Below, piece after piece: positions 112 through 30,948 of a stretch of DNA of 64,000 bases. Source of the DNA: Azospirillum agricola (GTDB lineage Bacteria; Pseudomonadota; Alphaproteobacteria; Azospirillales; Azospirillaceae); assembly GCF_017876095.1 (NCBI RefSeq), contig NZ_JAGINM010000003.1:63491-127490 (forward strand), given 5' to 3'. Position 1 is the first letter of the stretch, and each line of letters starts with the position of its first letter. Below the pieces are notes generated by a model. The model saw only the letters and a list, made by a program, of their open reading frames with translations, was not told the origin of the DNA and ran no database searches. A program made the translations under genes and the position numbers.

Positions 112-1752
112 TCAGTGCGCGACGCCGCCCAGCGGCACCGGGGACAGGCGGCCGTCCTCCATGTGCAGATGGACGTCGGCTGTGTCGAAATACTTGTCGT
201 CGTGGGTGATGGCCAGCACGGTGATGCCGGCCTGCCGCAGGCGGGGCAGGATGACGCGGTAGAACTTCTCGCGGAAGCGCGGATCCTGGTCGGCGGCCCA
301 TTCGTCGAAGACGCAGATCGGGCGCTTCTCCAGCAGCGACACGATCAGCGCCAGCCGCTTGCGCTGGCCGCCCGACAGCCGGGTGGTGCTGAACCGCCGG
401 TCGCGCAGGCTGGATTTGTGGCTCATCTCCAGCAGCCTGAACAGCTCGTCGGCCTCGGACTGGTCGATGTCCGGCACGCCGTACAGCTCGGTGAACAGGT
501 GGTTGTCGGAGAAGATGACCGAGAACATGTTGCGGTAGGCCGCCAGATTCTCCGGGCCGATGCGCTCCTCGTCGACGCGCAGGGCGCCGTCCACCGCCGG
601 GTAGAGGCCGATCAGCAGGCGGATGAAGGTGGTCTTGCCCGATCCGTTGCCGCCGGTGATGAACACCACCGTGCCGCGCTCGATGGTCAGGTCGATGGGG
701 CCGACCGCGAAGCCGGAATCGCCGGCCGGGGCGTGGTGGCGGAAGGTCAGGCCGTCCAGCACGATCCGCCGGAAGCCGTGGAAATGGTCGGCCTGCCGGG
801 GATCCCCGTCGCGGTCCACGTCGATGCGCGACAGCCGCTCCTCCAGCTCCAGGATGCTCTCGGCGGCGGTGTTGGCGTTGGAGAAGATGGGCAGCGCGCC
901 GACCACCGTGGAGACCGGGCCGATCATGAACAGGCTGGCGGTGGTGGTCATCACCACCGATTCGACGTGGGACTGGCTGAGGCTCGGCACGACGAACACC
1001 ATCAGGCCGGTCAGCAGGAAGAAGGTCACCTGCGACATCACGAAGTCGTTGGCGTACAGGGTCTGGGTGCGGATCTTCAGGGTCGCCACGTCGGACGACA
1101 CATGGGCCACCCGCTGGGCGATCTCCAGCGAGCGGGTGGTGCTCATCTTCACCTCCTTGAAGCCGTCGAGCATGTCGGTGAAGCCCTCCACCAGCTCGTT
1201 CTCGCGCGCGAAGGCTTGCCGGAGCTGGGCCTTGACCTCGCCCGAGCGCGCCAGATGGATGGCGGCGCCCAGCGTGGTGAAGGCCGCCGACAGCAGGAAG
1301 GCGGCCATCGACAGGGTCAGCATGTACAGCATGGTGAAGAGCACCAGCACCGCCGACTGCACGGCGATGATGATGTTGGGGGCGGCCTGGGAAATCACCT
1401 GGGTCTCGCGGCTGAGGCCGGCGTAGATCTCCGAGCGGCCGATCTCCTCGATCTCCAGGAACTCGGCGTGGCGCGCCCGCTCCAGCAGCCGCACCCGCAG
1501 CCGGTGGATCAGATGCTCCACCTGATTGCACACATCCACCATCAGCCGCTTCTGGGTGACGACGAAGATGGCGATGGCCAGCGAGAACAGCAGCAGGTTG
1601 TGCAGGTTGGACTGCTTGCTCGACACGTTCTGGGCGGCGACGTTGATGGTCGCGAGCACGGCGGCGTTGGCCAGCCCGGAGATCGCCGCCAGCAGCAGGA
1701 AGCGGAAGCGCAGGACGTCCGCGTCGCGCCGGAAGAGGGCTAGGAGTTTCAT
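112..1752 (-). CDS. Cyclic-peptide/siderophore-type ABC exporter, fused permease plus ATPase (SyrD/PvdE/YojI-like)
   Basis: 546 aa. N-terminal hydrophobic half with multiple TM segments. C-terminal ATPase with Walker A (GGNGSGKTTF), ABC signature (LSGGQRKRLALIVSLL) and Walker B (VFDEWAADQD). ATG at 1752 preceded by GGAG. The plus ORF 22..1743 is its antisense artefact. Confidence 0.85.
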   Translation of the reverse strand: MKLLALFRRDADVLRFRFLLLAAISGLANAAVLATINVAAQNVSSKQSNLHNLLLFSLAIAIFVVTQKRLMVDVCNQVEHLIHRLRVRLLERARHAEFLEIEEIGRSEIYAGLSRETQVISQAAPNIIIAVQSAVLVLFTMLYMLTLSMAAFLLSAAFTTLGAAIHLARSGEVKAQLRQAFARENELVEGFTDMLDGFKEVKMSTTRSLEIAQRVAHVSSDVATLKIRTQTLYANDFVMSQVTFFLLTGLMVFVVPSLSQSHVESVVMTTTASLFMIGPVSTVVGALPIFSNANTAAESILELEERLSRIDVDRDGDPRQADHFHGFRRIVLDGLTFRHHAPAGDSGFAVGPIDLTIERGTVVFITGGNGSGKTTFIRLLIGLYPAVDGALRVDEERIGPENLAAYRNMFSVIFSDNHLFTELYGVPDIDQSEADELFRLLEMSHKSSLRDRRFSTTRLSGGQRKRLALIVSLLEKRPICVFDEWAADQDPRFREKFYRVILPRLRQAGITVLAITHDDKYFDTADVHLHMEDGRLSPVPLGGVAH

Positions 1753-1819: not shown

Positions 1820-4800
1820 TCAGTCGGCGTGCAGCAGCGCGTCCAGATCGTCCAGGGACAGCCCCTTGTAGGTGAAGTCCGACGGCGTCGCCTCGCTGCC
1901 GCTCCGCGAGACGCAGTGGCGGACGATTTCGGCGAGGGCTTCGAGGAAGCCGTCCAGCAGCCCCTGCGCCGTCTCGCGCCCCACGGCGCTGTCGTAGTCC
2001 AGCCCGACCGTCAGCGCCCCGTCCACCACCATGGCGAGGATGTCGAGCGGGTGAGGGCGGCGGACCCGCGCGCCGAGCGCCCGGCCCGGCGCGTCCCAGT
2101 CGATGGCGAATCCCCCGCCCGGCTGGCCGGCAGCCGTGACGCCGCCCATCACGCCGCCCATCACGCCAAGGAAGTTGAAACCGATCTGGCCGGCCAGCGG
2201 CGCCAGTCCCGGCCCGGCCGGATGGCGGGTCAGCAGGCCGTAGCTCCAGCCCCGGTCGGGCACCTGCCGCAGCGACTCCTTGACCCGCTTGACCAGCGTG
2301 CCGATGTCGCCGGCCCCGCCGCCGTCCGTCCCGGAATCGAGCAGGAAGGGGTAATGGGCGGTGAACCAGCCCACCGTGCGGGTCAGGTCGGGAAGCGGAG
2401 CGGCGTCGCTGCCGGCGGCTGGCCATTCCCGGCCGTGGGATTCCAGCGTCACCAGCGTGCGCCGGCGGTCCAGCCGGCGGCTCAGCGCCAGCGCCAGCCC
2501 GGACAGCAGCAGGTCGTCGGTCCGCGTGCCGTAGGCGCGGTGGGCCGGACCCAGCAGCAGGGCGGTGGTGTCGCGGTCCAGCCGTCCCGAGACGCTCGCC
2601 ATGTCGGCCATCCGCACCGCCGCGCGGCCGGGCGGCACCACGGCGAGCGGCTCGGGCGGGGCCACCGCATTCCAGTAGGCCAGCGCCCCGCTCCAGCCGG
2701 CGCCGCCGGCCATGTCGGCCAACGCCCCCGTGTAGTCGCGGTAGGAGGCGGTCTTGTCGGGAAGCGCCAGCACCGTTCCGGCGAGGGCGGCGGCGTAGGC
2801 GGTGTGGACGTCCTCCAGCAGGATGCTCCACGACACGCTGTCCACCACCAGATGGTGGGCGGCCAGCAGCAGCCGGTCGCAGGAGGCGCCGCGCGCCAGC
2901 AGGGCGGCGAACAGCGGTCCGCTGTCCAGCCGGAAACCGGCGTGCAGCCGGTCGGCGGCGGCGGCCAGTTCCGTGTCCTCGTCGGCGCCCGGTTCGGCGC
3001 CCGGTTCGGCGCCCAGCTCGACCAGCGTCAGGGACGGCCCGCCGTCGGGCGGCAGGATGACCGGGTCGGGCAGGGAAACGCCGTCCGAGGCCGCCGGAAA
3101 GACCGTCCGCAGGGCGTCGTGATGGCGCCACAGGCTGTCGAGCGCCTTGCGGAGCGCTTCGGCGTCGAAACCCGCCGTCGCCCGCAGCAGGACGCCCTGG
3201 TTGAAGTGATGGCGGTCCTCGTCGACCGTCTCGAAGAACCAGCGCTGGATCGGCGCCAGGGGCACCGGCCCGCTCACCGGCCCCTGGTCGGCGCGCAGCT
3301 TCAGCGGCTTCACCACCTGGGCGAACTGGGCGACGCTGGGATTCTGGAAGATGTCGCGGATCTCCGCCCCCAGCTCCAGCCCGCGCAGGCGGGAGACGAT
3401 CTGGATGGCGCGGATGGAATCGCCGCCCAGCCCGAAGAAATCATCGTCCACGCCGATGTCGCCGCGTTCCAGGATCGCCCGCCACACCTCCAGAACCACC
3501 TGTTCCACCGGGGTGGCCGGATCGCGCCTGCTGGCCGCCGCCGGAGCGGCGGGGGCGGGCAGGGCGGCGCGGTCGAGCTTGCCGTTGACCGTCACCGGCA
3601 GCGCGTCCAACGGCACCAGATGGGCCGGCACGGCGTGGGAGGGCAGCCGGCGCGACAGATGGCGGCGCACCGCCACCGGTGTCACCGCGTCCACCCGTGG
3701 CACCGGACCGGCGGCGAACAGCCGCTCGTAGAAGGGGCTGGCGCGGAAGCCGTCGCCGAAATGGGCGCTGGCCACCCGGAACGGCACCGCCTCGGCGTCC
3801 TGGCGCTCGATCCGGCCGGTGACGGTGAAGTCGGGGTTGAGGCCGTTGCCGCATAGGCTGCGGGCCACGGTGAAGCGGACGCGGTCGCCCGGCCGCACCG
3901 CGACGCCCGCCTGGTCCAGGGCCTGGTCCAGCGGCAGGTAGACCGGCAGCCAGCTTCCCGGATTGTCGAGGATGTCCACCACATGGTCGGCGTCGACGTG
4001 GAGCTGGAGCCAGACCAGCAGGCCGGTGACCGGCCCGGCCCGCTCGATGACCAGCTCCCCGTCGTGGACGGCCTCCAGCGGCACGAGGCCGGTGTGGTCG
4101 AGATCCTCGAAGATCCCGGCGGTGGAAAGGATCGCCTCGCGCGGCAGGTTCTTGACGCAGACCCGCAGGTCGAAGGGGCGGCCGACCTCGGCGAAGATCC
4201 GCTCCACGTAATGGGCGGCGATGTCGGGGAAGCCGTAGGCGAAGCTGCCCTCCGGCAGGCCGACGGCGGCGATGCGGGTCAGGCTGCGCTGCGGCAGCAT
4301 CCGCGCCGGATCCTTCAGGAAGCGGCGGGCGCCGTTGATGATCTTCGCCGCCCCCTCCGAGCCGCCGATGGCCCCTACGATCTCGGAGATGCAGAAATCC
4401 ACCGGTTCCGGCAGCGTGATGGACTGCGCGTCGCCGTGGATCACCTCGATGCGGTCGGACAGGCCCAGCCGCTCGACGGTTTCCCGCGCCTTGCGCGCCG
4501 TGCTTTCCAACAGGTCGATGGCGTAGACCTTGCGGGCGCCGGCCTCCAGCGCCAGCCGCGCCAGGATGGCGAAGGGGCCGGTGCCGATGTCCACCACCGT
4601 GCGGCCCGGCAGATGGCGGGCGAAGGCGTCGCGGTAGCGGCGGTTGCGGCCCTCGTCGCCGGCCATGCTGGAATAGGCGACGTCGTCGTAGACGAAGAAC
4701 TCCGCCACCGAGGGCCACAGCTCCACCCGTGCTTCTGGGCAGTAGTAGGCGGCCAGCGCCTGGGAGCCGTCGGCCCGCGTGACGGTGGCGACGGCGGCGT

Positions 4801-7800
4801 CGCGCACGCCCGGAACGCCGCGGAGCGCCTGCTCGACCTCGCCCAGCTCGATGCGGTGGCCGGACACCTTGACCTGCTCGTCGGCGCGGCCGAGGAAATC
4901 CACCGCGCCGTCGGGCCGCCAGCAGGCGAGGTCGCCGGTGCGGTACAGCCGCTCGCTCCAGGGGGCGGTGACGAAGCGGGCGGCGGTCTGCGCCTCGTCG
5001 CCCCGGTAGCCGCGGGCGAGGCCGGCGCCGCCCAGATGCACCTCGCCCGGCACGCCGACCGGCACGGCCTGACCCGCCCCGTCCAGGATGTGCAGGCTGG
5101 TGTTGGGCAGCGGCCGGCCGATGGGGATGCGGACGAGCGCCGCGTCGGCGCCGCTCACCCGGTGGATGGTGGCGCAGACCGAGGCCTCGGTCGGGCCGTA
5201 GGCGTTGAAGGCGCGCAGGCGGTCGGCGTAGTGGGTCAGGTCGGCCACCGGCGCCGCCTCCCCCGCCGTGATCAGCACCTTGAGGGTCGGCATCGCCGCC
5301 CGCTCCAGCGCCCGCAGGTAGGTGGGCGGCAGGGTCGCCACGGTGGTGCCGCTGGCCGCCAGGAACTCCAGGAAGCGCGGCACCGATTCGATGACCGCCT
5401 TGTCCGGCAGCACGACGGCTCCCCCGGCGAACAGGGCCATGAAGATGTTCGCCAGCGAGGCGTCGAAGGAGGGGGAGGCGAATTGCAGCACCCGGTCCCC
5501 GGCCCCCAGCCCGAAGGTCTCGATCTGGCCCAGCGCCATGTTGACGAAGCCGGCATGCTCGACCATCACCGCCTTGGGCTGGCCGGTGGAGCCGGAGGTG
5601 AAGATGATGTAGGCCACCTCGTCCGGCGCCACGGCGGGGAGCGGAAGGTCGGGGTCGGTGGCGCCGGGATCCAGGAGCGGAGCCACCGCCAGGGCCGGCG
5701 GGCTGCCGGGCGGGAGTGCCACCTCGTCGCCCGGCCGGTCCACCAGCACCAGCCGGCATTCGGCGCGCTCCAGCATGGCGGCGAGCCGGACGGCGGGATA
5801 ATCGGGGTCGAGCGGCACATAGACCGCGCCGGCCTTCAGGATCGCCAGCAGGGCCACCACCGATTCCACCGAGCGGTTGGCCAGCACCGCCACCCGGTCG
5901 CGCGGCTCCACGCCCTGGCTGGCCAGCGTCCGGGCCAGCCGGCCGGTCGCCGCCTCCAGCGCGGCGTGATCCAGGCTGCGGTCGGCGCCCACCAGGGCCG
6001 GGCGGCCGGGGTGGCGGGCGGCCACCTCCGACAGCAGGGCGGCCATCGACAGGGATGGACGGTCGGCGGCCGGGCCGGCCGCGAAAGCGGCGATGGCGGC
6101 GCGCTCGGGGCCGCTCAGCAGGGGCAGGGTGCCGACCGGTGTGTGGGGGGCCAGCGCCGCCCCCTCGGCCAGCACCGCGAAATGGTCGCAGATCGCCGCG
6201 ATGCGCGGGGCGTCGAACAGGTCTTGGTTGTAATTGAGATCCAGCACCAGCTCGCCGCCGTCGGTCTGGAAATGGAACACCAGATCGTAGCGGCTGAAGT
6301 TCCAGGCGTTCTCCGGCCCGAACGGCCGCGCCGCCGCGCCGTCGAGGGCGAGGTCGATCGCTCCGAAGGTCTGGACCACCACCATCACGTCGAAGACCGG
6401 CGAGCGGCTCATGTCGCGGGCGAGGTCCAGCTCGCCGACCAGACTGTCGAAGGGGTAGGACTGGTGGGCCAGCCCGTCGGCCACCGTGCGGCCGACCGCC
6501 GCCAGCAGGTCGGCGAAGGGGGTTTCGGGCTCCACCCGGTCGCGCAGGGCCAGGGTGTTGACGAGATAGCCGATCTGCCCGTCGAGGTCGGGGTGGTCGC
6601 GCCCGGCGACCGGGCTGCCGACGATGATGTCGCGCTGGCCGCTGTAGCGGTGCAGCAGCGCCTTGGTCAGCGCGGTCAGGGTGGCGAACAGGGTGGCGCC
6701 GTGGGCCTCGGCCAGTTCCAGAAGGCGGCCGGTGGCCTCGGCCGGCAGGCGCAGGCGGCGCGTGGTGCCGTTGAAGGTCTGCACCGGCGGTCGCGGCCGG
6801 TCGGTGGGCAGCTCCAGCACCGGCAGCGGACCGCCGAGCCGGTCCAGCCAGTAGCGGCGGTCGGCCTCCAGGGCGCCGTCCGCCAGCCGTCCGGCCTGCC
6901 ACGCCGTCGCGTCGCGCTGTTGGATCGGCAGCGGAGGCAGGCCGGGGTCGCGGCCCTGGGTCAGGGCGGCGTAGACCGTGGCCAGCTCGCGCACCAGCAC
7001 GCCCAGCGACCAGACGTCGCTGACGATGTGGTGGATGTTGAAGAGGAAGACGTGGCGCGGCGTGCCGTCCCCGGCCCCATTGTCGTCGGGCAGGCGGGCC
7101 AGCACGGCGTGGAGCAACGGCCCGCTTTCCAGGTCGAACACATGCTCGCGGTTGCCGGCGGCCAGCCGGTGGGCCTCCTCGTCCGGCCGGGCGTGCCGGC
7201 GCAGGTCGATCGTTTCCAGCCGCCAGGGCAGGTCGGCATGCACCACCTGCCGGGCCTGCCCGTCCTCCTCGCGGAAGCTGGTGCGCAGGGAGTCATGGCG
7301 GCGGATCAGGGTCCGGAAGGCCTGCTCCAGCGCGGCGGCGTCGACCGGTCCGCGCAGCTCGTAGGCTTCGGGCAGGTTGTAGGCGGTGGGGGCGATGCCC
7401 ATGCGGTCGAGCCGCCACAGCCGCGCCTGGGCGGGCGAGGCCGGGTGGCTGGGGGCGTCGGGCACGCGCGGGATCGGCTTGGGGGCGGACGGGCCGCTGG
7501 CCTTGGCGCGGTCGATCAGGGCGGCGAGTTCGCGGATGGTGGAGTTGGCGAAGAAGTCCTTCAGCGCGACCTCGACGCCGCAGGTCTGGTAGATCTCCAG
7601 CACGGCGCGGATCGCCCGCAGGGAATCGCCGCCGAAGGCGTGGAAGCGGGTGGTCACCCCGGCGTCGGCGATGCCGAACAGCCCGTTCCACACGGCGGCC
7701 AGCGCCTTCTCGGTGGCGGTTTCCGCCGGGACATAGCCGCTTTCCTGGTAATAGAGCGCTTCCGGCCGCGGCAGGGCCTTGCGGTTCAGCTTGCCGCTGA

Positions 7801-9325
7801 TGGTGGTCGGCAGGTCGGCCAGGGCGATGAGGGTGTGCGGCTGCATGCCGGACGGCAGGATGCGGTCGAGCGCCGCCTTCACCGTGTCCGCCGGCAGCGG
7901 GTCGGAGGAGCCGTCGGCGCGCACGTAATAGCCGGCCAGCAGCGGGCGCTGGTCGGCGCCGGCATGGACGGCGCAGGCCGCCTGCGCCACGCCCGGCACC
8001 TGCCGCAGGGCGGCCTCGACCTCGGCCAGCTCGATGCGGATGCCGCTGATCTTGACCTGGTTGTCCTGGCGGCCCAGGCATTCGACGGTGCCGTCGGGCA
8101 GCAGGCGGCCGAGGTCGCCGGTGCGGTAGATGACGTCCGGCTTGTCGGGGCTGAGGGGGTTCTGGACAAAGGCGGCGGCGGTCAGCTCGGGATCGCCGAG
8201 GTAGCCGAGCGAGCGGTAGGGCGTGCGGATGTGGATCTCGCCGATCTCGCCGGCGGCGCAGGCGCGGCCCTGGTTGAGGATCAGCACGGCGGTGTTGGGC
8301 AGCGGCTTGCCGATGGGCAGCACGCGGCGCGGGTCGCCGGACAACGCGCCCACCCGGTGGAACAGCTTGGCCAGCGTGGTTTCCGAGGGACCGTAGAGGT
8401 TGACCAGCTCCGCCCCGCCGCCGGCCACCGCCCGCCACGCCGCCACGTCGGCGCCCAGCAGCGGCTCGCCGGCGACCAGCAGATGGCGCAGATGGGGGAA
8501 CGGGGCTTCGGCCGGGGCGCGGTGCTCCAGCTCCCGCACCAGCAGCCGCAGCACGGTGGGCACGCAATGGACCAGGGTCAGGCGGGAGTCCGCCATCCAG
8601 TCGACCAGCCGGTGGGGCTGGCCGCGCAGTTCGGGCGCCGGAACGCAGACGGTGCCGCCGGCCATCAGCGGCACCAGCACGTCGCGCAGGCTGACGTCGA
8701 AGGTGATCGGGGCCAGCCAGGAGCCGCGCGTCTCCGCCCCGAGCCCGAACTCGGCCAGCTCCCAGCGCAGGAAATGGCTGAGGCCGCGCTGCTGGCCCAG
8801 GATGGCCTTGGGCTGGCCGGTCGAGCCGGAGGTGAACATGACGTAGCAGCCGTCGCCCGGCCCCACGGCGACGCCGGGGTTGTGGTCGGGCTGTTCTCCG
8901 GCCGGGCCGTCGGCCGCCAGGATGACCGCTTCGGCCCCGGCGGCGGCGAGGCGCGCCTCCAGGGCGGGGCGGTTGGCGGAGTCGGTCACCACCACCCGGC
9001 AGCGCGCCTTGTCCAGATAGGCGGCCAGCCGGCGTTCCGGCAGGTCGGGCGGCAGCGGCAGGAAGGCCGCCCCCGCCTTGCCGGTTCCGAGCAGGGCGGC
9101 GATGCAGCCGATGCCGGGATCGAGGAACAGCCCGACGATGCCGGCGCCACCGCCGACCGCGCCGCCCGTCACCCCATGCGCCGCCAGCGCATGGGCGACG
9201 CGGTTGGCCTGCCGGTTCAGGGCGTCGTAGGTGATGCTTCGCCCGGCGGTCTCGACGGCGACGGCCTGGGGGCGGCTCTCGGCCTGGAACTCGAACTGCT
9301 CGAAATAGGCTTGGCGCTGCATCAC
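1820..9325 (-). CDS. Non-ribosomal peptide synthetase, two modules: A-T-C-A(methyltransferase-interrupted)-T-E (ends with an epimerisation domain, no TE)
   Basis: 2501 aa. A1 core motifs (YVMFTSGSTGQPK, NLYGPSETT, YRTGDL, GRQDNQVKISGIRIELAEVE, ISGKLNRKAL). T: FGGDSLRA. C: HHIVSDVWS. A2: YIIFTSGSTGQPK, NAYGPTEAS, YRTGDL, KVSGHRIELGEVE...NGKLDRAAL, with an inserted SAM-MT (VVDIGTGPF...VYAIDL...FCISEIVG). T: FGLGGDSIRA. C-terminal domain has E-domain motifs (LAPIQRWFFE, HHLVVDSVSW). Confidence 0.92.
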   Translation of the reverse strand: MMQRQAYFEQFEFQAESRPQAVAVETAGRSITYDALNRQANRVAHALAAHGVTGGAVGGGAGIVGLFLDPGIGCIAALLGTGKAGAAFLPLPPDLPERRLAAYLDKARCRVVVTDSANRPALEARLAAAGAEAVILAADGPAGEQPDHNPGVAVGPGDGCYVMFTSGSTGQPKAILGQQRGLSHFLRWELAEFGLGAETRGSWLAPITFDVSLRDVLVPLMAGGTVCVPAPELRGQPHRLVDWMADSRLTLVHCVPTVLRLLVRELEHRAPAEAPFPHLRHLLVAGEPLLGADVAAWRAVAGGGAELVNLYGPSETTLAKLFHRVGALSGDPRRVLPIGKPLPNTAVLILNQGRACAAGEIGEIHIRTPYRSLGYLGDPELTAAAFVQNPLSPDKPDVIYRTGDLGRLLPDGTVECLGRQDNQVKISGIRIELAEVEAALRQVPGVAQAACAVHAGADQRPLLAGYYVRADGSSDPLPADTVKAALDRILPSGMQPHTLIALADLPTTISGKLNRKALPRPEALYYQESGYVPAETATEKALAAVWNGLFGIADAGVTTRFHAFGGDSLRAIRAVLEIYQTCGVEVALKDFFANSTIRELAALIDRAKASGPSAPKPIPRVPDAPSHPASPAQARLWRLDRMGIAPTAYNLPEAYELRGPVDAAALEQAFRTLIRRHDSLRTSFREEDGQARQVVHADLPWRLETIDLRRHARPDEEAHRLAAGNREHVFDLESGPLLHAVLARLPDDNGAGDGTPRHVFLFNIHHIVSDVWSLGVLVRELATVYAALTQGRDPGLPPLPIQQRDATAWQAGRLADGALEADRRYWLDRLGGPLPVLELPTDRPRPPVQTFNGTTRRLRLPAEATGRLLELAEAHGATLFATLTALTKALLHRYSGQRDIIVGSPVAGRDHPDLDGQIGYLVNTLALRDRVEPETPFADLLAAVGRTVADGLAHQSYPFDSLVGELDLARDMSRSPVFDVMVVVQTFGAIDLALDGAAARPFGPENAWNFSRYDLVFHFQTDGGELVLDLNYNQDLFDAPRIAAICDHFAVLAEGAALAPHTPVGTLPLLSGPERAAIAAFAAGPAADRPSLSMAALLSEVAARHPGRPALVGADRSLDHAALEAATGRLARTLASQGVEPRDRVAVLANRSVESVVALLAILKAGAVYVPLDPDYPAVRLAAMLERAECRLVLVDRPGDEVALPPGSPPALAVAPLLDPGATDPDLPLPAVAPDEVAYIIFTSGSTGQPKAVMVEHAGFVNMALGQIETFGLGAGDRVLQFASPSFDASLANIFMALFAGGAVVLPDKAVIESVPRFLEFLAASGTTVATLPPTYLRALERAAMPTLKVLITAGEAAPVADLTHYADRLRAFNAYGPTEASVCATIHRVSGADAALVRIPIGRPLPNTSLHILDGAGQAVPVGVPGEVHLGGAGLARGYRGDEAQTAARFVTAPWSERLYRTGDLACWRPDGAVDFLGRADEQVKVSGHRIELGEVEQALRGVPGVRDAAVATVTRADGSQALAAYYCPEARVELWPSVAEFFVYDDVAYSSMAGDEGRNRRYRDAFARHLPGRTVVDIGTGPFAILARLALEAGARKVYAIDLLESTARKARETVERLGLSDRIEVIHGDAQSITLPEPVDFCISEIVGAIGGSEGAAKIINGARRFLKDPARMLPQRSLTRIAAVGLPEGSFAYGFPDIAAHYVERIFAEVGRPFDLRVCVKNLPREAILSTAGIFEDLDHTGLVPLEAVHDGELVIERAGPVTGLLVWLQLHVDADHVVDILDNPGSWLPVYLPLDQALDQAGVAVRPGDRVRFTVARSLCGNGLNPDFTVTGRIERQDAEAVPFRVASAHFGDGFRASPFYERLFAAGPVPRVDAVTPVAVRRHLSRRLPSHAVPAHLVPLDALPVTVNGKLDRAALPAPAAPAAASRRDPATPVEQVVLEVWRAILERGDIGVDDDFFGLGGDSIRAIQIVSRLRGLELGAEIRDIFQNPSVAQFAQVVKPLKLRADQGPVSGPVPLAPIQRWFFETVDEDRHHFNQGVLLRATAGFDAEALRKALDSLWRHHDALRTVFPAASDGVSLPDPVILPPDGGPSLTLVELGAEPGAEPGADEDTELAAAADRLHAGFRLDSGPLFAALLARGASCDRLLLAAHHLVVDSVSWSILLEDVHTAYAAALAGTVLALPDKTASYRDYTGALADMAGGAGWSGALAYWNAVAPPEPLAVVPPGRAAVRMADMASVSGRLDRDTTALLLGPAHRAYGTRTDDLLLSGLALALSRRLDRRRTLVTLESHGREWPAAGSDAAPLPDLTRTVGWFTAHYPFLLDSGTDGGGAGDIGTLVKRVKESLRQVPDRGWSYGLLTRHPAGPGLAPLAGQIGFNFLGVMGGVMGGVTAAGQPGGGFAIDWDAPGRALGARVRRPHPLDILAMVVDGALTVGLDYDSAVGRETAQGLLDGFLEALAEIVRHCVSRSGSEATPSDFTYKGLSLDDLDALLHAD
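3656..4738 (-). other. Class-I SAM methyltransferase domain inserted between motifs A8 and A9 of the second A domain (about aa 1530-1890 of the NRPS)
   Basis: Motif I VVDIGTGPFAILARLALEAGARKVYAIDL and post-I/II ...RIEVIHGDAQSITLPEPVDFCISEIVG. It is flanked upstream by A8 (KVSGHRIELGEVE) and downstream by A9/A10 (LPSHAVPAHLVPL...NGKLDR). Coordinates are approximate, from residue counting. Confidence 0.7.
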
Positions 9326-9395: not shown

Positions 9396-11327
9396 TCACC
9401 AGTCGGCCTCCATGTCCGCTCCGGCGTCGGCCGGTTGCGGTTGCGGGGCGGCGGTTCCGCCGAAGGCCGGCAGGTCGAAGGCGTCGAGGAACAGGCCGAA
9501 GGTCAGCACCACCATCAGCAGGTCGTCCTCGAAGGTCTGGTTGAGGTCGCGCCCCGGCTCGCGGTGGAGGCGCTTGAGGCGCTCCACCGTGCCGGGGTCG
9601 AAATAGCCGTCGCGGCGGATGCGCTCGGGCGACAGCAGTTCCTCCACCAGCGGCACGCCGTGGCGCAGCAGCGCGGCGCTGCTCGGGGCGACGAAGCTGA
9701 ACTTCTTGCGCTCGACGATCTCCGGCGGCAGGTAGCGGCGGGCCAGCCGCTTCAGCAGGTGCTTTTCCTCGCCGCCATGGACCATCAGGGCGGGGGGGAT
9801 GCGGCGGGCCACCTCGATCACGCCGATGTCGAGGAAGGGATAGCGGGCCTCCACCCCGTTGGCGAAGGCCACCCGGTCGCCATGGTCGGCCAGCAGATGG
9901 TCGGCCATGCGCAGCTTGAAATCGAGGTAGGAGCGCTTGTGGAAGGCGTGCCGCCCGGCCAGCCGGGCGACGTCCACCGGCGGCCGGTCCAGGCAGTCGA
10001 AGCCGGGGAAGCGCGCGGCCACGGCCGGGGAATAGAGGGCCCGCTTGATCTCGGCCGCCGCCAGATAGTTCTTCTCGTAGAAGAATCCCGCGTCGCCCCA
10101 CAGCCGCTGGCGGAGCTGGGATTCCAGCAGGGCGTCGAGGTCGGCGGGGTCGGCGTCCGTCTCCCGGTGCTGGTCCAGCCGGTAGCCGACATAGCCGCCG
10201 AACAGCTCGTCGGCCCCCTCGCCGGTCAGCACCACCTTCAGGCCCCGCTCGCGCACCATCCCCGACAGGATCAGCGAGCAGGCGTTGTAGGATTCCCGCA
10301 GGGGCGCCTCGGCGTGGCGCACGATGTCGGCGAGATGGGCGTGGATCTGCTCCGGCCCGACGGCGGTCTCGTGGTGGAGGCTGCCCAGCCGCCGGGCCAT
10401 CAGGCGCTGGTGGGGGCTCTCGTCGATGCGGCCGTCCCGGAAGGTGATGGAGAAGGTCTGGCGCCGCTCGCCCGGCGTCAGGTCGGCGGCGATGGCGGCG
10501 ATCAGCGAGCTGTCCAGCCCGCCGCTGAGATAGGCGCCGACCGGCACGTCGGCCTGGAGCCGGTAGCGCACCGCCTGCCGCAGGGCGGCGTCCAGCTCCT
10601 CCACCCAGGAGTCCGCCGGACGGCTGTCGTCGATGGCGCCGGCCTCGGGATAGTCGAGGTCCCAATAGACCGAGCGCCGGCGCGCGCCGCTGGATTCCAC
10701 CACCAGCACGGTGCCCGGCTCCAGGCTCTCCACCCCCTCGAACAGGGTGCGCGGGCTGACCGGGCCGGGGAAGGTCAGGATCTGGTCCAGCCCGGTCAGG
10801 TCCACCCGACGCGGCACCGCCGGATGGCGCAGCAGCGCCTTGATCTCCGACCCGAAGACCAGCCCCTCGGCGGTGTCGGCGAGGAACAGGGGAGCGATGC
10901 CGACATGGTCGCGGCCCAGCACCAGCCGGCGGCGGGTGAGGTCGTAGACGGCGAAGGCGAATTGCCCGTTCATGCGGGCGGCGAACTCCGGCCCGTATTC
11001 CTGGTAGAGGGCCGGCAGCACCTCGGTGTCGGCGCGGGTGCGGAAGCGGTGGCCGCGCCGCTCAAGCTCGGCGCGAAGCTCCCCGTGGTTGTAGATCTCG
11101 CCGTTGCACACGGAGACCACGGTGCCGTCGGCGCTGAAGACCGGCTGGTTGCCCGCCGCCAGATCGACGATGGCCAGCCGGCGGAAGCCCAGGCCGATGC
11201 CGGGGGCGGTGAAGAAGCCCTCGTCGTCGGGGCCGCGATGGACCAGCGCCTCGGCCATGGCCGCCAGTCGGTGGCGGGCCACCGGTTCCGGATTGCCGGG
11301 GGTGAAGAGTCCGAGAATTCCGCACAT
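9396..11327 (-). CDS. asnB: Asparagine synthetase (glutamine-hydrolysing) family amidotransferase, AsnB-like, embedded in the NRPS operon
   Basis: 643 aa beginning MCGILGLF (class-II glutamine amidotransferase N-terminal Cys), followed by an Asn-synthase adenylation domain (SGGLDSS PP-loop). ATG at 11327 lies only 5 nt after the megasynthase stop (TAA 11333-11335). The tracked ORF 9396..16922 merely extends this frame upstream as an Arg-rich artefact over the megasynthase. Confidence 0.85.
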   Translation of the reverse strand: MCGILGLFTPGNPEPVARHRLAAMAEALVHRGPDDEGFFTAPGIGLGFRRLAIVDLAAGNQPVFSADGTVVSVCNGEIYNHGELRAELERRGHRFRTRADTEVLPALYQEYGPEFAARMNGQFAFAVYDLTRRRLVLGRDHVGIAPLFLADTAEGLVFGSEIKALLRHPAVPRRVDLTGLDQILTFPGPVSPRTLFEGVESLEPGTVLVVESSGARRRSVYWDLDYPEAGAIDDSRPADSWVEELDAALRQAVRYRLQADVPVGAYLSGGLDSSLIAAIAADLTPGERRQTFSITFRDGRIDESPHQRLMARRLGSLHHETAVGPEQIHAHLADIVRHAEAPLRESYNACSLILSGMVRERGLKVVLTGEGADELFGGYVGYRLDQHRETDADPADLDALLESQLRQRLWGDAGFFYEKNYLAAAEIKRALYSPAVAARFPGFDCLDRPPVDVARLAGRHAFHKRSYLDFKLRMADHLLADHGDRVAFANGVEARYPFLDIGVIEVARRIPPALMVHGGEEKHLLKRLARRYLPPEIVERKKFSFVAPSSAALLRHGVPLVEELLSPERIRRDGYFDPGTVERLKRLHREPGRDLNQTFEDDLLMVVLTFGLFLDAFDLPAFGGTAAPQPQPADAGADMEADW

Positions 11328-11332: not shown

Positions 11333-26041
<14,709 letters not shown>

Positions 26042-26949
26042 CGTCAGCGTCTGGGTTGCGGCGGTGCGAGGGGGTGGTCTCGTGCGGAATCTCGGTTGTC
26101 GTTAAAAACAACAATGACATGCAAATCATTTTGCCAACGCGCGTGTCTGGTATGAGTATACATGAGTTTCTTTCTGGTGAAAATCTTAGTTTTTCTTCGT
26201 AATGCTCAGATAAATATTCGGAATCTAAATCGATGATTCCGGTATTTACCGGGTAATCGGAGAATTATCATTGGGATCGGCGATGAGTTCGTGGATTTTC
26301 TGAAAAATATCCTTCGCGAATTGACGGAGGGTTGTCTCTTGATGGGCGGTGTTGGCGGTAAACACGATTGCTGAACGCATCGATCGGCCATCTCGGAGAT
26401 TGTGGATTCCGCGCTGCGAGCGATCAATGGAGTATTAAAGACAAATTATACTTCTCAATGATTGTGATAATGCGCGCCACTACATTTCCTTTATTCTCTT
26501 TGTATAAACCTCGTTTCAGGAATGAGTTTTAAGCAATGAACGGTGAATTTCGAAATTCTCATGGCAATTCATGAATGTTATTGCATCGGTGCGCGCCTAT
26601 GGATTTATACGATCATCTGCCATTTTAGAAAAGACTCTTGTTGTCATTTCATTGTTGCATGGTATATAGCAAAATCTGCATAGATAACGCGGATATGTCA
26701 ATGCTAATGGCGGTTGATTTTATAAAGAATCGGTCATTCATTCGTATTCTTTGCCGTTTGGATGAGTAATTGGTTCCAATTCGGCGCGTGTTATTGAAAC
26801 ACATATGAAATATGTTCTGGAGGTGGATGGGGGTTTCTCTCCCAATAAGGCCGCTTCCTGAAAATTCACTGGACGATGGACCACTGCCGAAGCGGCTGGC
26901 CGCGTCCATCGGAAAACCTTCACCATCACTTCGGCCGGGGGGCGGTGTC
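26042..26949. promoter_or_regulatory. AT-rich (about 40% GC) intergenic island of about 0.9 kb containing the divergent promoters of the megasynthase operon (leftwards) and the hydrolase-autotransporter block (rightwards)
   Basis: Composition drops sharply from about 70% GC. Many A/T runs and short direct/inverted repeats are visible. No credible ORF; the tracked ORFs here are short, start-poor and low in GC3. Confidence 0.6.
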
Positions 26950-29900: not shown

Positions 29901-30234
29901 CCAGCTGTTCCGCGCCGAGGCGTCGCTGGGCCTGCGCCGGGTCTTCGATCTCGGCGACGGCGACCTGGGCGGCGGCGGCCTGCTGAGCGAGCTGCGGGTC
30001 GGGGTGGCGCGCGACGTCGAACTCGAGGGGCGCACCGAATCGGGCCGGGTCATCGCCTACGACCTCCCCCTCAGCGTGGACGGCTACGCCGAGAACCGCT
30101 GGAGCGTCCCGGTGTCGGCCCGGGTCGAGGCCATGGCCGGCGAAACCGTCAGCCTGTTCGGCGCCTATGGCGGCGAATTCTCTTCCCGCTCGGCCAGCCA
30201 CCGCTTCAACGCCGGCCTGCGGGTCCGCTTCTGA
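26950..30234 (+). CDS. AmpC/class-C beta-lactamase-fold serine hydrolase (esterase/DD-peptidase family) fused to a C-terminal autotransporter beta-barrel
   Basis: Signal peptide (MACSKDEVCERGRSRTGILRDLLLAGVALCPLVLGAAEG). SxxK (GSHSKTF), YxN (YSNTN) and HxG (GHSGQIGGY) motifs. Long Gly/Thr/Asn-rich passenger repeats. C-terminal beta-domain ending ...NAGLRVRF (terminal aromatic). An alternative start at ATG 26812 has no SD. Confidence 0.7.
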   Translation: MACSKDEVCERGRSRTGILRDLLLAGVALCPLVLGAAEGRAASREQLGPVLQAVIDMTVSQGSSLQGVGVGVSYGNGEIWLGAGGYRDIARTQPLQPTDQFRIGSHSKTFTGTAVLQLVDQGAIRLDDTLERWLPNTGIPNSGAITVRNLLNMTSGIPDYLMAASLRYPNMSVLAEWSRFALGPPYATADYTPEQLIQAVVQTPGQTYGAVGQMKYSNTNFALLGMIAQKASCATAGGCRSIETLVNSGVIQRLGMGSTLFPVDGNFTGVPVQNLQTVMPSDVMPGMPAGSYNVTNANPKVPWAAGSILSTPLDELTWIRQLALNNQNLLSQQTQIERLTSTVPGNVAYIPVQYGLAIYHMPSTGTGTQLVGHSGQIGGYVSSIFYDPLLDVAFSINMTGYATDAAPWYPLYGGSAYADALQGGNFNTVPILWALDRNLQIAMQAQGNCTGWGGDVTAAPATCAGDSVRTAALDVSGSLTVQPSGRGITNAVITNITDPIPQVAFVTVPRPSIAFFGSGMAGINLNPGASLILQPGSIIEMTGVNSAAVLLGGYNTVTASGTVNAYGAGSSAFGLLGSGSTLSIGPSANVLGDVRLGRGTTNTVIVDGVVAGNIDMTNTNTRLQGSGLITGTVGGGGRVAPDYIVAGGLGGGTLPQLTVGSYNGNNTVLEIHTRPGGVSNRLVVAGTADLLGGTLELNPDSTRLDGIYTVLTAGTVLNRFSFVNSIDRTAVRAYYGAGEVTAAAVNAVSFDMGVRTANAGIGQHLGVLQDRAALFGGSPLQVAARPGGTLSDAAGSGIEGFVPRRPVELRGPRGVNLWSDAFYHMGRFDQANGTAGIRSHGIGLALGADVELSRSLGVGAMAAYQTTRARAGDGNDTELDSRAYYAGLYGVAKLDAVTVDASLLAGIGDNDTRRPTMVLGSAMAAAGDYRDLRLAAKLGVSREVDAGFATLVPRLAASWSRVQGDGYAEKGAGVGALAVDSTSSQLFRAEASLGLRRVFDLGDGDLGGGGLLSELRVGVARDVELEGRTESGRVIAYDLPLSVDGYAENRWSVPVSARVEAMAGETVSLFGAYGGEFSSRSASHRFNAGLRVRF

Positions 30235-30360
30235 GGCCGTGGCGCGGGGGTCGCGCGGGAAACCATGGACGGCGGGCCGACGCTCCCCGGAGCGGCCGGC
30301 CCGCCGTCCGATCTGTGCAAGACCATGAGCGACTGCAACACGAAGGAGCTGGAACACGCC

Positions 30361-30948
30361 ATGACCGAAAATCTGCACACAGACGTCAAGCCCGCCGGGG
30401 AGGTCGTTCCCGTCGACCGCCGCGCCAAGGCCGACGAGATCGTCCGCAAGCACGCCATCCTGGCCGCCGGGCTGGGCCTGATCCCCGTTCCGGTGCTGGA
30501 TCTGGCGGCGATCAGCGGCGCCCAGTACAAGATGATCCGCGAGCTGGCGGATCTCTACGGGGTGCCGGCCTCCAACGACCGGCTGCGGTCGATCGTCACC
30601 GCCCTGCTCGGCGGCGGGCTGCCGTTCCTGCTGAGCACCGGGTCGCTGGGCGCCGTCGCCAAGTCGATCCCGGTGGTCGGCACGGTGGTCGGCATCGCGG
30701 TGATGCCGTCCCTGGCCGGCGCGGCGACCCTGGCGCTGGGCCGGGTGTTCACCGCCCACTTCCGGGCCGGCGGCAAGCTGCTGGACCTCGATGTGGACGA
30801 GTTGCGCGAGCATTTCCACAGGGAGTTCGAGGCGGCCAAAAGCAACCCGGACGACCATGGCGTGCCGGCGTCCCCGGTCGAGGTTCCGGTGGCGCCCGTC
30901 GCGGTGACCAAGCCGGCGGCCAAGACGCCGCCGTCCCCCACCGTCTGA
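30361..30948 (+). CDS. DUF697 (YcjF-like) domain protein
   Basis: Motif HAILAAGLGLIPVPVLDLAAISGAQYKMIRELADLYG, typical of DUF697. Start chosen at the ATG (MTENLH...) preceded by AAGGAG 13 nt upstream; the tracked ORF begins earlier at 30265 (weak SD). Confidence 0.5.
   Translation: MTENLHTDVKPAGEVVPVDRRAKADEIVRKHAILAAGLGLIPVPVLDLAAISGAQYKMIRELADLYGVPASNDRLRSIVTALLGGGLPFLLSTGSLGAVAKSIPVVGTVVGIAVMPSLAGAATLALGRVFTAHFRAGGKLLDLDVDELREHFHREFEAAKSNPDDHGVPASPVEVPVAPVAVTKPAAKTPPSPTV

What the first reader, a model, noticed from the sequence alone, without database searches (positions are those of the whole stretch)
1820..3268. NRPS ends in an epimerisation domain with no TE; the matching DCL-C-A-T-TE module is encoded 25 kb away on the opposite strand
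The 2501-aa NRPS terminates with an E domain (LAPIQRWFFE, HHLVVDSVSW) and has no thioesterase. The only TE in the region is in the plus-strand NRPS at 34123..38148, whose N-terminus DIKDIYPLTPFQEGILYH is the classic signature of a C domain that follows an E domain in trans. The assembly line is therefore non-collinear: megasynthase, then the 2501-aa NRPS (both minus strand), then the plus-strand NRPS, which is separated by an AT-rich island and five membrane or secreted-protein genes.
Basis: partly seen in the sequence, partly recalled or inferred. Interest (0 to 1): 0.65.

Follow-up and report, generated by a model that had tools for sequence, protein, structure and literature searches.

The report
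Split NRPS: E-domain end, distant TE module
An Azospirillum lipopeptide assembly line is split so that one synthetase ends in an epimerisation domain and hands its chain to a separately encoded final module, a textbook arrangement whose intervening membrane-protein genes are conserved members of the same gene cluster.

Summary
Window 1820-3268 (-) encodes a genuine epimerisation (E) domain that ends the 2501-aa NRPS "B". No thioesterase (TE) follows it.

The only TE in all six frames is in the 1341-aa C-A-T-TE protein "I" (34123-38148, +). Its N-terminal C domain is DCL-type, the kind that accepts a D-configured donor.

B ends in ...ATPSDFTYKGLSLDDLDALLHAD, which aligns with the COM donor tails of GrsA, TycA, TycB and BacC. 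I starts MITRDDIKDIYPLTPFQEG, which aligns with the TycB1 and SrfA-C heads.

The interpretation needs one correction. The intervening genes are not an interruption. DUF697, a small membrane protein, SPFH/Band7 and a beta-lactamase-fold enzyme (often also a porin and TauD) accompany the C-A-T-TE gene in nine related loci from several bacterial lineages. Here they appear to form one operon with I, divergent from the D-AsnB-B-ABC operon across a shared AT-rich intergenic region.

E-terminated subunits are common. In a sample of 79 similar loci, 49 proteins end right after E, and a quarter or more of those lack an adjacent partner gene.

Verdict: a real, well-supported but ordinary trans E-to-DCL handoff, in an uncharacterised beta-amino-lipopeptide cluster family.

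The parts
1823..3268 (-). Epimerisation (E) domain, residues 2020-2501 of NRPS B
   Evidence: Motifs PIQRWF, HHLVVDSVSW, LESHGRE, RTVGWFT and FNFLG. Best solved-structure matches are the T-E regions of PvdL, TycA and GrsA, E 1e-85 to 1e-79.
1823..1891 (-). COM-donor-like C-terminal tail ATPSDFTYKGLSLDDLDALLHAD
   Evidence: Aligns to the tails of GrsA (TPSDFSFKELELEEMDDI), TycA (TPSDFSVKGLQMEEMDDI), TycB3 and BacC, and to the cis E-C linker of PvdL. Similar tails occur in homologues P0121-P0127 and in L087.
3314..3499 (-). Carrier (T) domain feeding the E domain, GGDSI type
   Evidence: Pfam PP-binding at residues 1943-2004. Motif FFGLGGDSIRAIQIV.
1820..9325 (-). NRPS B, 2501 aa: A-T-C-A(MT insert)-T-E
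   Evidence: Pfam, motifs. A-domain codes DVRHLALLAK and DAATIAAVCK.
9396..11327 (-). Asparagine-synthetase-like amidotransferase (AsnB-like), 643 aa
   Evidence: Pfam Asn_synthase plus GATase_7. NCBIfam TIGR01536 scores above its cut-off. Also found next to the PKS part in L084 and L088.
11333..26041 (-). Megasynthase D, 4902 aa: FAAL-ACP-KS-AT-ACP-aminotransferase-C-(truncated A)-T-C-C'-A(Thr)-T-C(LCL)
   Evidence: Pfam, motifs, segment reading. The terminal C domain best matches solved C domains (Txo1/2, TycC) that I take to be LCL-type. Thr code DFWNIGMVHK.
26042..26811 (.). AT-rich divergent intergenic region between the D operon and the beta-lactamase...I operon
   Evidence: GC 0.46 in the 26001-27000 window against about 0.73 elsewhere. 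Sequence read. Promoter-like hits are at chance level.
26812..30234 (+). Secreted beta-lactamase-fold serine hydrolase fused to an autotransporter beta-barrel (start codon uncertain)
   Evidence: Pfam Beta-lactamase plus Autotransporter. Signal-like N-terminus and SxxK motif. Homologues in eight of the nine related loci.
30265..30948 (+). DUF697 membrane protein
   Evidence: Pfam PF05128. Present within 10 kb of the I orthologue in L001, L002, L082, L083, L084, L086 and L088, and directly after B orthologues in L089 and L090.
30990..31265 (+). Small hydrophobic protein (91 aa)
   Evidence: ORF and translation. tblastn matches in L001, L002 and L083 at the same position between DUF697 and Band7.
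31262..32740 (+). SPFH/Band 7 family membrane protein
   Evidence: Pfam PF01145. Conserved next to I orthologues.
32761..34074 (+). BBP2_2 outer-membrane beta-barrel porin
   Evidence: Pfam PF10082. Also directly upstream of I in L002 and nearby in L086.
34123..38148 (+). NRPS I, 1341 aa: DCL C - A(Asp) - T - TE termination module
   Evidence: Pfam. Full-length matches to TycB1 and SrfA-C. Asp-type code DLTKLGHIGK. 97% identical to an Azospirillum agricola protein.
34123..35520 (+). DCL-type condensation domain with a COM-acceptor-like head (MITRDDIKDIYPLTPFQEG)
   Evidence: TycB1 280 bits, SrfA-C 251, BacC 216, McyB 206 and the PvdL C domain after its E domain 176, against Txo1 114. The control LCL domain of D gives the reverse ranking. 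The head is conserved in more than 30 orthologues.
37468..38106 (+). Type I thioesterase domain, the only TE in the window
   Evidence: Pfam PF00975 at residues 1116-1328. Motif GWSFG. Six-frame HMM scan.
38192..39160 (-). TauD/TfdA-family Fe(II)/2-oxoglutarate dioxygenase, convergent with I
   Evidence: Pfam PF02668. Orthologues close to I in L001, L082 and L087.
112..1752 (-). Cyclic-peptide-export-type ABC transporter downstream of B
   Evidence: NCBIfam TIGR01194 scores 327.7 bits against a cut-off of 286.2. Pfam ABC_tran and ABC_membrane.

Best explanation
The window, from an Azospirillum strain close to A. agricola, carries one hybrid PKS-NRPS cluster for a beta-amino-fatty-acid lipopeptide, laid out as two divergent operons. 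The inferred route is as follows. D loads a fatty acid (FAAL-ACP), extends it once (KS-AT-ACP) and transaminates it (class III aminotransferase domain). D then adds one residue on a module whose A-domain core is missing, followed by Thr. D's terminal LCL C domain condenses the chain onto the residue held by B's N-terminal A-T. B adds a second, aromatic-type residue on an A domain that contains a methyltransferase insert. B's terminal E domain epimerises this thioester-bound residue. The D-configured peptidyl-S-T is then passed in trans to the DCL C domain of protein I. The two subunits are held together by a split COM element: an acidic helix after TPSDF at the B C-terminus, and the first ~10-20 residues of I. 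I adds Asp, probably beta-hydroxylated by the adjacent TauD enzyme. I's TE then releases the product, probably by macrocyclisation, and the SyrD-type ABC transporter exports it. Shown here: domain identities and subtypes, the docking-type sequences, the single TE, and conserved co-occurrence. Inferred: the order of transfer, E-domain activity, physical docking, hydroxylation, cyclisation and the product.
For: E domain: motifs and top matches to solved T-E structures. The upstream T domain carries GGDSI, the form I recall as typical of carriers that serve E domains. DCL: the best solved matches are TycB1, SrfA-C, BacC, McyB and the PvdL C domain that follows its E domain. A roughly 60-bit drop then separates these from Txo1. 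D's last C domain, used as a control, ranks the other way round. Docking: the B tail aligns with the GrsA, TycA, TycB3 and BacC COM-donor segments. The I head aligns with TycB1 and SrfA-C from residue 3. B tail plus I head reproduce the continuous E-C junction of PvdL...TPSDFPLAQLSQAQLDAL...EIEDVYPLTPMQEG. COM elements are described as specific to E/C interfaces, and trans forms as probable splits of cis forms (PMC12402864). Logic of the parts: D ends in a C domain and B starts with A-T. I is the only protein that starts with a C domain and the only one with a TE. D then B then I is therefore the only order that uses every domain. Synteny: nine related loci were read, from Azospirillum sp. TSH100, Roseixanthobacter, Endothiovibrio and six metagenome or unnamed assembly contigs. 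In every one the C-A-T-TE orthologue lies within 10 kb of cluster NRPS or accessory genes. In six the FAAL-PKS-aminotransferase gene itself is in view. Identities of I and D fall broadly together, from 69/74% down to 39/51-65%. In L087 an E-terminated B-like protein (tail ATPSDFSHGGLSIEELDNILESLS) and the I orthologue sit on one strand with eight accessory genes between them. In the window, genes from 26812 to 38148 are separated by 48 bp or less, which suggests one operon. Asp-type specificity residues (DLTK..HIGK) recur in 22 of 23 orthologues that could be parsed.
Against: Nothing here is experimental. Docking and stereochemistry rest on sequence similarity to Bacillus and Pseudomonas systems. 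The E2 and E4 motifs deviate from the consensus I recall, HHxxxDS instead of DG and ESHGRE instead of EGHGRE. The catalytic His and Glu positions are kept, and the deviating positions also vary among homologues. No genome was found with B and I fused or directly adjacent. Full-length B orthologues could not be paired with I orthologues in the same genome, apart from this strain and L087. The module with a truncated A domain and the tandem C-C' in D show that this line departs from textbook rules, so other departures cannot be excluded. No literature on the product was found.
Confidence: 0.8

Rival explanations
1. B's chain is released without protein I. A stand-alone beta-lactamase-fold (PBP-type, SurE-like) cyclase would take the peptide from a terminal T-E pair that ends in a D-residue. 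The conserved beta-lactamase-fold gene at 26812-30234 would be that enzyme, and I would serve something else.
For: B ends in T-E with no TE. From my own knowledge, this is the architecture served by SurE-type offloading enzymes. A PF00144 gene with an SxxK motif is conserved in eight of nine related loci.
Against: The window's enzyme has a signal-like N-terminus and a C-terminal autotransporter barrel, so it should sit outside the cytoplasm. The orthologues in L001, L083, L084 and L087 carry signal peptides or lipoboxes. Protein I would be left with a DCL C domain and no donor, yet it is conserved with the cluster everywhere. The COM-type tail on B would have no partner.
Confidence: 0.06
2. 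Protein I belongs to a different pathway and merely lies nearby. The minus-strand assembly line would be completed by a partner outside the window.
For: I is on the opposite strand, 25-32 kb from B, behind membrane-protein genes. True B orthologues in L089 and L090 are not followed by an I gene within 3-5 kb.
Against: No other TE or NRPS is present in the window or in the 10 kb to its left. To the right lie GH3, CreD, a two-component system and primary-metabolism genes. I co-occurs with cluster genes in all nine related loci despite rearranged gene order. A single C-A-T-TE module cannot make a peptide without an upstream donor.
Confidence: 0.05
3. The handoff from B to I occurs, but the E domain is inactive or only structural, so the residue stays L-configured.
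For: The E2 and E4 motifs deviate from the consensus I recall at one position each. COM/E units have been proposed to act as structural scaffolds (PMC12402864).
Against: All seven E motifs are recognisable, the catalytic His of HHxxxD and the Glu of E(G/S)HGRE are kept, and the upstream carrier has the GGDSI form. The acceptor C domain clusters firmly with C domains that follow E domains.
Confidence: 0.07

Closest known systems
TycA/TycB1 and GrsA/GrsB (tyrocidine and gramicidin S synthetases): trans E-COM(D) to COM(A)-C handoff
   Same: The donor subunit ends in T-E followed by TPSDF and an acidic helix. The acceptor subunit starts with a few residues before (I/M)Y.LTP.QEG of a DCL domain. 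B's T-E matches TycA at E 1.8e-85 and I's C domain matches TycB1 at 280 bits.
   Different: The organism is a proteobacterium. The donor subunit is a two-module protein inside a PKS-NRPS hybrid, and the partner genes are 25 kb apart on opposite strands rather than adjacent. The acceptor head is shorter: 8 residues before D-I-Y, against about 11 in TycB1.
SrfA-B/SrfA-C (surfactin synthetase), with SrfA-C as a stand-alone C-A-T-TE termination module
   Same: The same four-domain termination subunit, which per the literature as I recall it receives a D-residue-terminated lipopeptide from an E-terminated subunit. I aligns with SrfA-C over residues 3-1212.
   Different: The srfA genes are collinear and adjacent. 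Surfactin starts with a beta-hydroxy acid loaded by a starter C domain, not with a PKS/aminotransferase-made beta-amino acid.
Cis E-COM-C junctions (BacC modules 4/5, PvdL)
   Same: B tail plus I head reproduce the continuous junction sequence seen in PvdL and BacC. This fits the published idea that trans COM pairs arise by splitting cis ones (PMC12402864).
   Different: Here the junction is split between two polypeptides encoded in different operons.
Iturin/mycosubtilin (MycA) and puwainaphycin-type beta-amino-fatty-acid lipopeptide synthetases
   Same: The front end has acyl-AMP ligase, ACP, KS, ACP and a class III aminotransferase domain, followed by C. Puwainaphycin is a published example of FAAL plus PKS/NRPS making beta-amino fatty acid lipopeptides (PMC4219810, listed).
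   Different: The host is an alphaproteobacterium and an AT domain is integrated. About five amino-acid positions are predicted. The first A domain is truncated, C domains occur in tandem, and an AsnB-like gene lies between the synthetase genes. A conserved set of DUF697, SPFH, porin and secreted-hydrolase genes is present. The product is unknown.
SurE-type PBP-like offloading cyclases
   Same: A T-E terminus without a TE, plus a beta-lactamase-fold gene in the cluster.
   Different: The hydrolase here is predicted to be exported and, in this strain, anchored by an autotransporter domain. A canonical TE module with a matching DCL domain is also present.

Membership tests
NRPS epimerisation (E) domain | Condensation-superfamily domain placed directly after a carrier domain | tested here: met
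   Pfam PF00668 has a second stretch at the C-terminus of B, after PP-binding at residues 1943-2004.
NRPS epimerisation (E) domain | E-specific core motifs E1-E7 (PIQxWF, HHxxxD..SW, EGHGRE, RTVGWFT, FNYLG; consensus recalled from my own knowledge) | tested here: met
   PIQRWF, HHLVVDSVSW, LESHGRE, RTVGWFTAHYPF and FNFLG are present. There are single-residue deviations in E2 (DS for DG) and E4 (ES for EG).
NRPS epimerisation (E) domain | Closer to solved E domains than to C domains | tested here: met
   The ten best hits all contain an E domain (PvdL, TycA, GrsA, BacC, TycB), at 202-294 bits. The PCP-C didomains follow at 98 bits.
NRPS epimerisation (E) domain | Catalyses L-to-D conversion of the carrier-bound residue | not testable with these tools
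   Needs a biochemical assay or chiral analysis of the product.
DCL-type condensation domain | N-terminal motif of the YPL(T/S)xxQxG(M/I)L(F/Y)H type and an intact HHxxxDG (consensus recalled from my own knowledge) | tested here: met
   DIYPLTPFQEGILYH at residues 9-23 and HHILVDGW at residue 154. Both are conserved in orthologues.
DCL-type condensation domain | Groups with C domains known to follow E domains rather than with LCL domains | tested here: met
   TycB1 280, SrfA-C 251, BacC 216, McyB 206 and PvdL 176 bits, against Txo1 114. The reverse ranking is seen for D's terminal C domain. The LCL and DCL labels of the reference structures rest on my own knowledge of those systems.
DCL-type condensation domain | Selects a D-configured donor | not testable with these tools
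   Needs an enzymatic assay.
COM (communication-mediating) docking pair | Located at an E/C interface split between two polypeptides | tested here: met
   B ends 23 residues after the E-domain body. I begins 8 residues before the C1 motif. This definition of COM location comes from PMC12402864.
COM (communication-mediating) docking pair | Donor segment: TPSD motif followed by an acidic amphipathic helix at the C-terminus | tested here: met
   ATPSDFTYKGLSLDDLDALLHAD aligns with the GrsA, TycA, TycB3 and BacC donor segments.
COM (communication-mediating) docking pair | Acceptor segment at the extreme N-terminus of the C domain | tested here: met
   TRDDIKDIYPLTPFQEG aligns with SKEQVQDMYALTPMQEG of TycB1 and SKDQVQDMYYLSPMQEG of SrfA-C. 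A basic residue sits at the same position and is conserved as R or K in most orthologues.
COM (communication-mediating) docking pair | Physical, partner-selective interaction of the two subunits | not testable with these tools
   Needs pull-down, crosslinking or dipeptide-formation assays.
Type I NRPS thioesterase | Alpha/beta-hydrolase TE domain fused after the last carrier domain, with a GxSxG nucleophile | tested here: met
   PF00975 at residues 1116-1328, E 1.4e-21. Motif GWSFG at residue 1183.
SurE-like PBP-type offloading cyclase (considered for gene 26812-30234) | Beta-lactamase fold with an SxxK nucleophile | tested here: met
   PF00144, E 1e-48. SHSK at residue 151.
SurE-like PBP-type offloading cyclase (considered for gene 26812-30234) | Cytoplasmic enzyme able to reach the carrier-bound peptide | tested here: not met
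   A signal-like hydrophobic N-terminus and an autotransporter beta-barrel are present. Orthologues have signal peptides or lipoboxes. This was judged by eye, not with a dedicated predictor.
Iturin/mycosubtilin-type beta-amino lipopeptide synthetase | Acyl ligase - ACP - KS - ACP - aminotransferase - C order at the start of the line | tested here: met
   Pfam hits and motifs place AMP-binding at the N-terminus, KS at 706-1072, AT at 1225-1498, Aminotran_3 at 1848-2205 and a C-domain HHxxxDG at 2398.
Iturin/mycosubtilin-type beta-amino lipopeptide synthetase | Product is a macrolactam closed through the beta-amino group | not testable with these tools
   The product is unknown. The only indirect support is the cyclic-peptide-export ABC family hit.

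The most novel reading that the evidence does not exclude
The termination-module gene is persistently linked to DUF697, a small membrane protein, SPFH/Band7 and often a porin and an exported beta-lactamase-fold hydrolase, even though gene order is otherwise shuffled between lineages. This could mean that the last assembly and release step is organised at the membrane. An SPFH/DUF697 scaffold might couple TE release to export or self-protection, with the exported hydrolase maturing or detoxifying the lipopeptide. That would be a new kind of accessory module for NRPS termination, rather than mere co-location.
Probability: 0.15. Interest if true: 0.55.

Novelty: new member of a known kind. Interest (0 to 1): 0.22.

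Why it matters
The finding sets the module order (D, then B, then I) needed to predict the product of an uncharacterised lipopeptide cluster. This cluster family occurs in plant-associated Azospirillum, in Roseixanthobacter and other Rhizobiales-like bacteria, and in at least one gammaproteobacterium.

It also shows that the membrane and secreted-protein genes inside the cluster should be kept in any cloning or heterologous-expression design. The mechanism itself, a trans E-to-DCL handoff through a split COM element, is textbook. The result adds an example, not a principle.

Tried and rejected
- **Genome-contig scan.** Querying with B's T-E region as a single protein returned only distant E domains at 36% identity or less, mostly actinomycete, and no orthologue.
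- **Homologue searches.** The search with full-length B failed internally and still counted against the cap. The repeat with the C-terminal half returned only partial or short orthologues, best 55-58% identity. It returned no full-length Azospirillum B, so no large set of paired tails and heads could be built.
- **PLSDB plasmid tblastn.** No orthologue was found, so no annotated long context was available.
- **Metagenome-contig scan.** Most hits were generic T-E domains because the patterns were universal carrier-domain motifs. I reused the set as a baseline for how often E domains end a protein. It also yielded two true B orthologues, L089 and L090.
- **SurE-like offloading by the beta-lactamase-fold gene.** Considered and rejected because the enzyme is predicted to be exported.
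- **A second TE, a type II TE or an MbtH gene in the window.** None was found.
- **Rfam scan.** No hits.
- **AT-rich region.** Promoter and terminator scans gave counts at chance level. The repeat search found nothing convincing.
- **Literature.** No paper on a product of this cluster family was found.
- **A-domain code regex.** My automatic extraction was one residue out of register at positions 299/301. Only the other positions (DLTK..HIGK) are used from that call. The manual alignment, validated by the exact Thr code, is the one relied on.
Full report
**Source and gene map**

The window has about 73% G+C. Protein I is 97% identical to an NRPS of Azospirillum agricola. A Logan assembly contig carries an identical ABC transporter gene and the same neighbouring genes. 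I called genes from third-position GC and from Pfam hits.

| Coordinates (strand) | Gene or feature |
|---|---|
| 112-1752 (-) | ABC exporter |
| 1820-9325 (-) | NRPS B |
| 9396-11327 (-) | AsnB-like amidotransferase |
| 11333-26041 (-) | megasynthase D |
| 26042-26811 | 770-bp AT-rich gap |
| 26812-30234 (+) | beta-lactamase-fold enzyme with autotransporter domain |
| 30265-30948 (+) | DUF697 |
| 30990-31265 (+) | 91-aa hydrophobic protein |
| 31262-32740 (+) | SPFH/Band7 |
| about 32761-34074 (+) | BBP2_2 porin |
| 34123-38148 (+) | NRPS I |
| 38192-39160 (-) | TauD |

To the right come GH3, CreD, a two-component system, an S8 autotransporter and primary-metabolism genes.

**Checking the observation**

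B is 2501 aa with the domain order A-T-C-A(MT insert)-T-E. Coordinates 1820-3268 are residues 2020-2501.

- The E motifs are all present: PIQRWF, HHLVVDSVSW, LESHGRE, RTVGWFT and FNFLG.
- The carrier domain in front carries GGDSI, the form I recall as typical of carriers that serve E domains (own knowledge).
- Against solved structures, the T-E region matches PvdL T-E, TycA, GrsA T-E, BacC and TycB E domains at 202-294 bits. PCP-C didomains reach only 98 bits.
- B has no TE.

I is 1341 aa, C-A-T-TE, with the quoted N-terminus. An HMM built from type I and type II thioesterases of this family finds only I in all six frames of the window. The 10 kb left of the window contain an MFS transporter, DoxX, an amidohydrolase, an isochorismatase, a generic alpha/beta hydrolase and regulators, but no NRPS.

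**Subtype of the acceptor C domain**

I's C domain matches TycB1 (280 bits), SrfA-C (251), BacC C5 (216), McyB (206) and the PvdL C domain that follows its E domain (176). The score then drops to Txo1 at 114 bits. To my knowledge, all the leading hits are C domains that take a D-configured donor.

As a control I searched D's terminal C domain. It ranks the other way: Txo1/2 at 252, TycC at 224, and SrfA-C and TycB1 at about 80 bits. The DCL assignment for I is therefore well supported.

**Docking**

B ends in ...SEATPSDFTYKGLSLDDLDALLHAD. This aligns with four segments:

- GrsA: TPSDFSFKELELEEMDDI
- TycA: TPSDFSVKGLQMEEMDDI
- TycB3: TPSDLGDEELSMEELENIL
- BacC: TPSDYGDKGISLDQLEE

These are, as I recall the literature, the experimentally defined COM donor segments. 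I starts MITRDDIKDIYPLTPFQEG, which aligns from residue 3 with TycB1 (SKEQVQDMYALTPMQEG) and SrfA-C. A basic residue sits at the same position and is conserved as R or K in most of the 30-plus orthologues.

PvdL has the same junction in one chain...TPSDFPLAQLSQAQLDAL...EIEDVYPLTPMQEG. B's tail plus I's head therefore look like a split E-C junction. A 2025 structural study states that COM elements occur specifically at E/C interfaces. It also states that they exist in cis and in trans, and that trans forms probably arose by gene splitting (PMC12402864).

**Do the two halves belong together?**

Domain logic alone gives one consistent order. D ends in a C domain and needs an A-T acceptor. B starts with A-T and ends in E. 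I is the only protein that starts with a C domain, and it holds the only TE.

Comparative evidence agrees. I read the context of nine I orthologues at 69% down to 38% identity. They come from Azospirillum sp. TSH100, Roseixanthobacter liquoris, Endothiovibrio diazotrophicus and six metagenome or unnamed assembly contigs. Every one lies within 10 kb of other cluster genes, and six show the FAAL-PKS-aminotransferase gene itself. Identities of I and D fall broadly together across these loci.

Gene order varies between lineages:

- I lies upstream of D on the same strand in L002, L082, L084 and L088.
- I is divergent from D in the window, L001 and L083.
- I lies directly after a D-like C-T-C-A-T-C protein in L086. 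That protein ends in an LCL C domain, not an E domain.
- I lies downstream of an E-terminated B-like protein in L087, with eight accessory genes between them. The B-like tail there is ATPSDFSHGGLSIEELDNILESLS and the I head is MPTRSDIQDIYPLTP.

True B orthologues (55% identity, L089 and L090) are followed by a DUF697 gene, not by I. In every locus read, I is a separate gene and never sits directly after B.

**The 'island'**

The intervening genes recur beside I as follows:

| Gene | Related loci where it lies within 10 kb of the I orthologue |
|---|---|
| DUF697 | 7 of 9 |
| SPFH/Band7 | 6 of 9 |
| beta-lactamase-fold gene | 8 of 9 |
| small membrane ORF (window 30990-31265) | 3, by tblastn |
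| BBP2_2 porin | 2 |
| TauD | 3 |

In the window the six plus-strand genes ending with I are separated by 48 bp or less. The four minus-strand genes are separated by 70 bp or less. The layout is therefore two divergent operons around one AT-rich intergenic region. That region holds no Rfam family and no promoter-like signal above chance. The intervening genes are cluster members, not an insertion.

**Predicted chemistry (inference)**

I extracted A-domain specificity residues by alignment to GrsA, whose sequence I recalled from memory. Recovery of the exact canonical Thr code supports the register.

| A domain | Code | Reading |
|---|---|---|
| D | DFWNIGMVHK | canonical Thr |
| B, first | DVRHLALLAK | no match I recognise |
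| B, second | DAATIAAVCK | near the Phe and Tyr codes |
| I | DLTKLGHIGK | Asp-type |

The Asp-type residues (DLTK..HIGK) recur in 22 of 23 orthologues that could be parsed. The convergent TauD gene next to I fits beta-hydroxylation of carrier-bound Asp, as with SyrP-type enzymes (own knowledge). The ABC transporter passes the NCBIfam cut-off for 'cyclic peptide export'.

The likely product is a cyclic lipopeptide. It would contain a beta-amino fatty acid, about five amino acids, a D-configured methylated aromatic residue in the penultimate position, and a C-terminal Asp or hydroxy-Asp.

**Rivals**

- **SurE-type release by the beta-lactamase-fold enzyme.** This fits the T-E terminus. However, the enzyme is predicted to be exported and is fused to an autotransporter here. 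The idea would also orphan both I's DCL domain and B's COM tail.
- **I belongs to another pathway.** This is contradicted by synteny and by the absence of any other partner in or beside the window.
- **The E domain is inactive.** This cannot be excluded from sequence, but the catalytic positions are intact.

**How unusual is it?**

I took the 79 metagenome loci whose T-E regions are most similar to B's.

- 49 proteins end right after the E domain, and 29 continue in cis into a DCL C domain.
- 44 of the E-terminated cases have enough downstream DNA to judge.
- Of those 44, 23 have a DCL-starting gene within 600 bp, about 6 have one a few kb downstream, and 11 have none within the available DNA (at most 10 kb).

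The partner-gene detection was a crude motif scan and the sample is biased, but the message is clear. E-terminated subunits are the majority in this sample, and non-adjacent partners are not rare.

**Verdict**

The role assigned to the intervening genes needs revision.

The mechanism is a standard trans E-to-DCL handoff through a split COM element. The cluster is a new, uncharacterised member of the beta-amino-fatty-acid lipopeptide kind. I found no paper describing its product. Interest as a finding is low to moderate.

The most intriguing loose end is the conserved linkage of the termination module to the DUF697, SPFH, porin and secreted-hydrolase genes.

Noticed in passing
window 11333-26041 (-), D residues ~2260-2930: The first NRPS module after the aminotransferase domain has C and T domains, but only a C-terminal subdomain remnant of an A domain lies between them. 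The A core is missing, so this carrier must be loaded in trans by an unidentified A domain.
   Followed up: partly
window 11333-26041 (-), D residues ~2933-3800: Two condensation-type domains sit in tandem before the Thr-activating A domain. The second has [10 protein letters not shown], which lacks the usual DG. It matches the same solved C domains as D's terminal C domain, but more weakly (138 bits). Its role is unknown. Modifying, recruiting or degenerate functions are all possible.
   Followed up: partly
window 11333-11360 (D C-terminus), 9396-9420 (AsnB C-terminus) and L086 ~9810-9832: D ends ...DDELMDAW, the AsnB-like protein ends ...DMEADW, and the D-like protein of L086 ends ...LKQSDW. 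The shared acidic-x-Trp C-terminal end could be a common docking peptide, for example towards B's N-terminal A domain.
   Followed up: no
window 9325 / 11333 (junction of D and B): One module is split between proteins at the C|A boundary: D ends in an LCL C domain and B starts directly with an A domain. The AsnB-like gene is inserted between the two genes.
   Followed up: partly
window ~3600-5000 (-), B residues ~1440-1910: B's second A domain carries a ~470-aa insert with a SAM methyltransferase. It scores as Methyltransf_25 and PrmA, and its homologues hit PF05185 (PRMT5). To my reading it resembles protein-arginine methyltransferases more than the classic NRPS N-methyltransferase. Neither this nor the methylation site was tested.
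   Followed up: no
window 26812-30234 (+): A beta-lactamase-fold serine hydrolase is fused to an autotransporter beta-barrel. Orthologues in related clusters keep the hydrolase with a signal peptide or lipobox but, outside Azospirillum, lack the barrel. Maturation or self-resistance roles are possible.
   Followed up: partly
L002 4396-5268, L082 13906-14724, L088 8296-9078 and 9075-9875: Related clusters carry a stand-alone type II thioesterase, and L002 and L088 also carry a phosphopantetheinyl transferase, next to the C-A-T-TE gene. The window has neither.
   Followed up: yes
window 39440-40546 (+): An ORF with coding-like GC3 (368 aa) has no Pfam or NCBIfam hit. It lies just beyond TauD at the right edge of the cluster.
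   Followed up: no
L090 8503-9315: An ORF with a transposase-like sequence (my reading, not searched) lies about 1.7 kb downstream of the B orthologue. This suggests recent rearrangement of that copy of the cluster.
   Followed up: no
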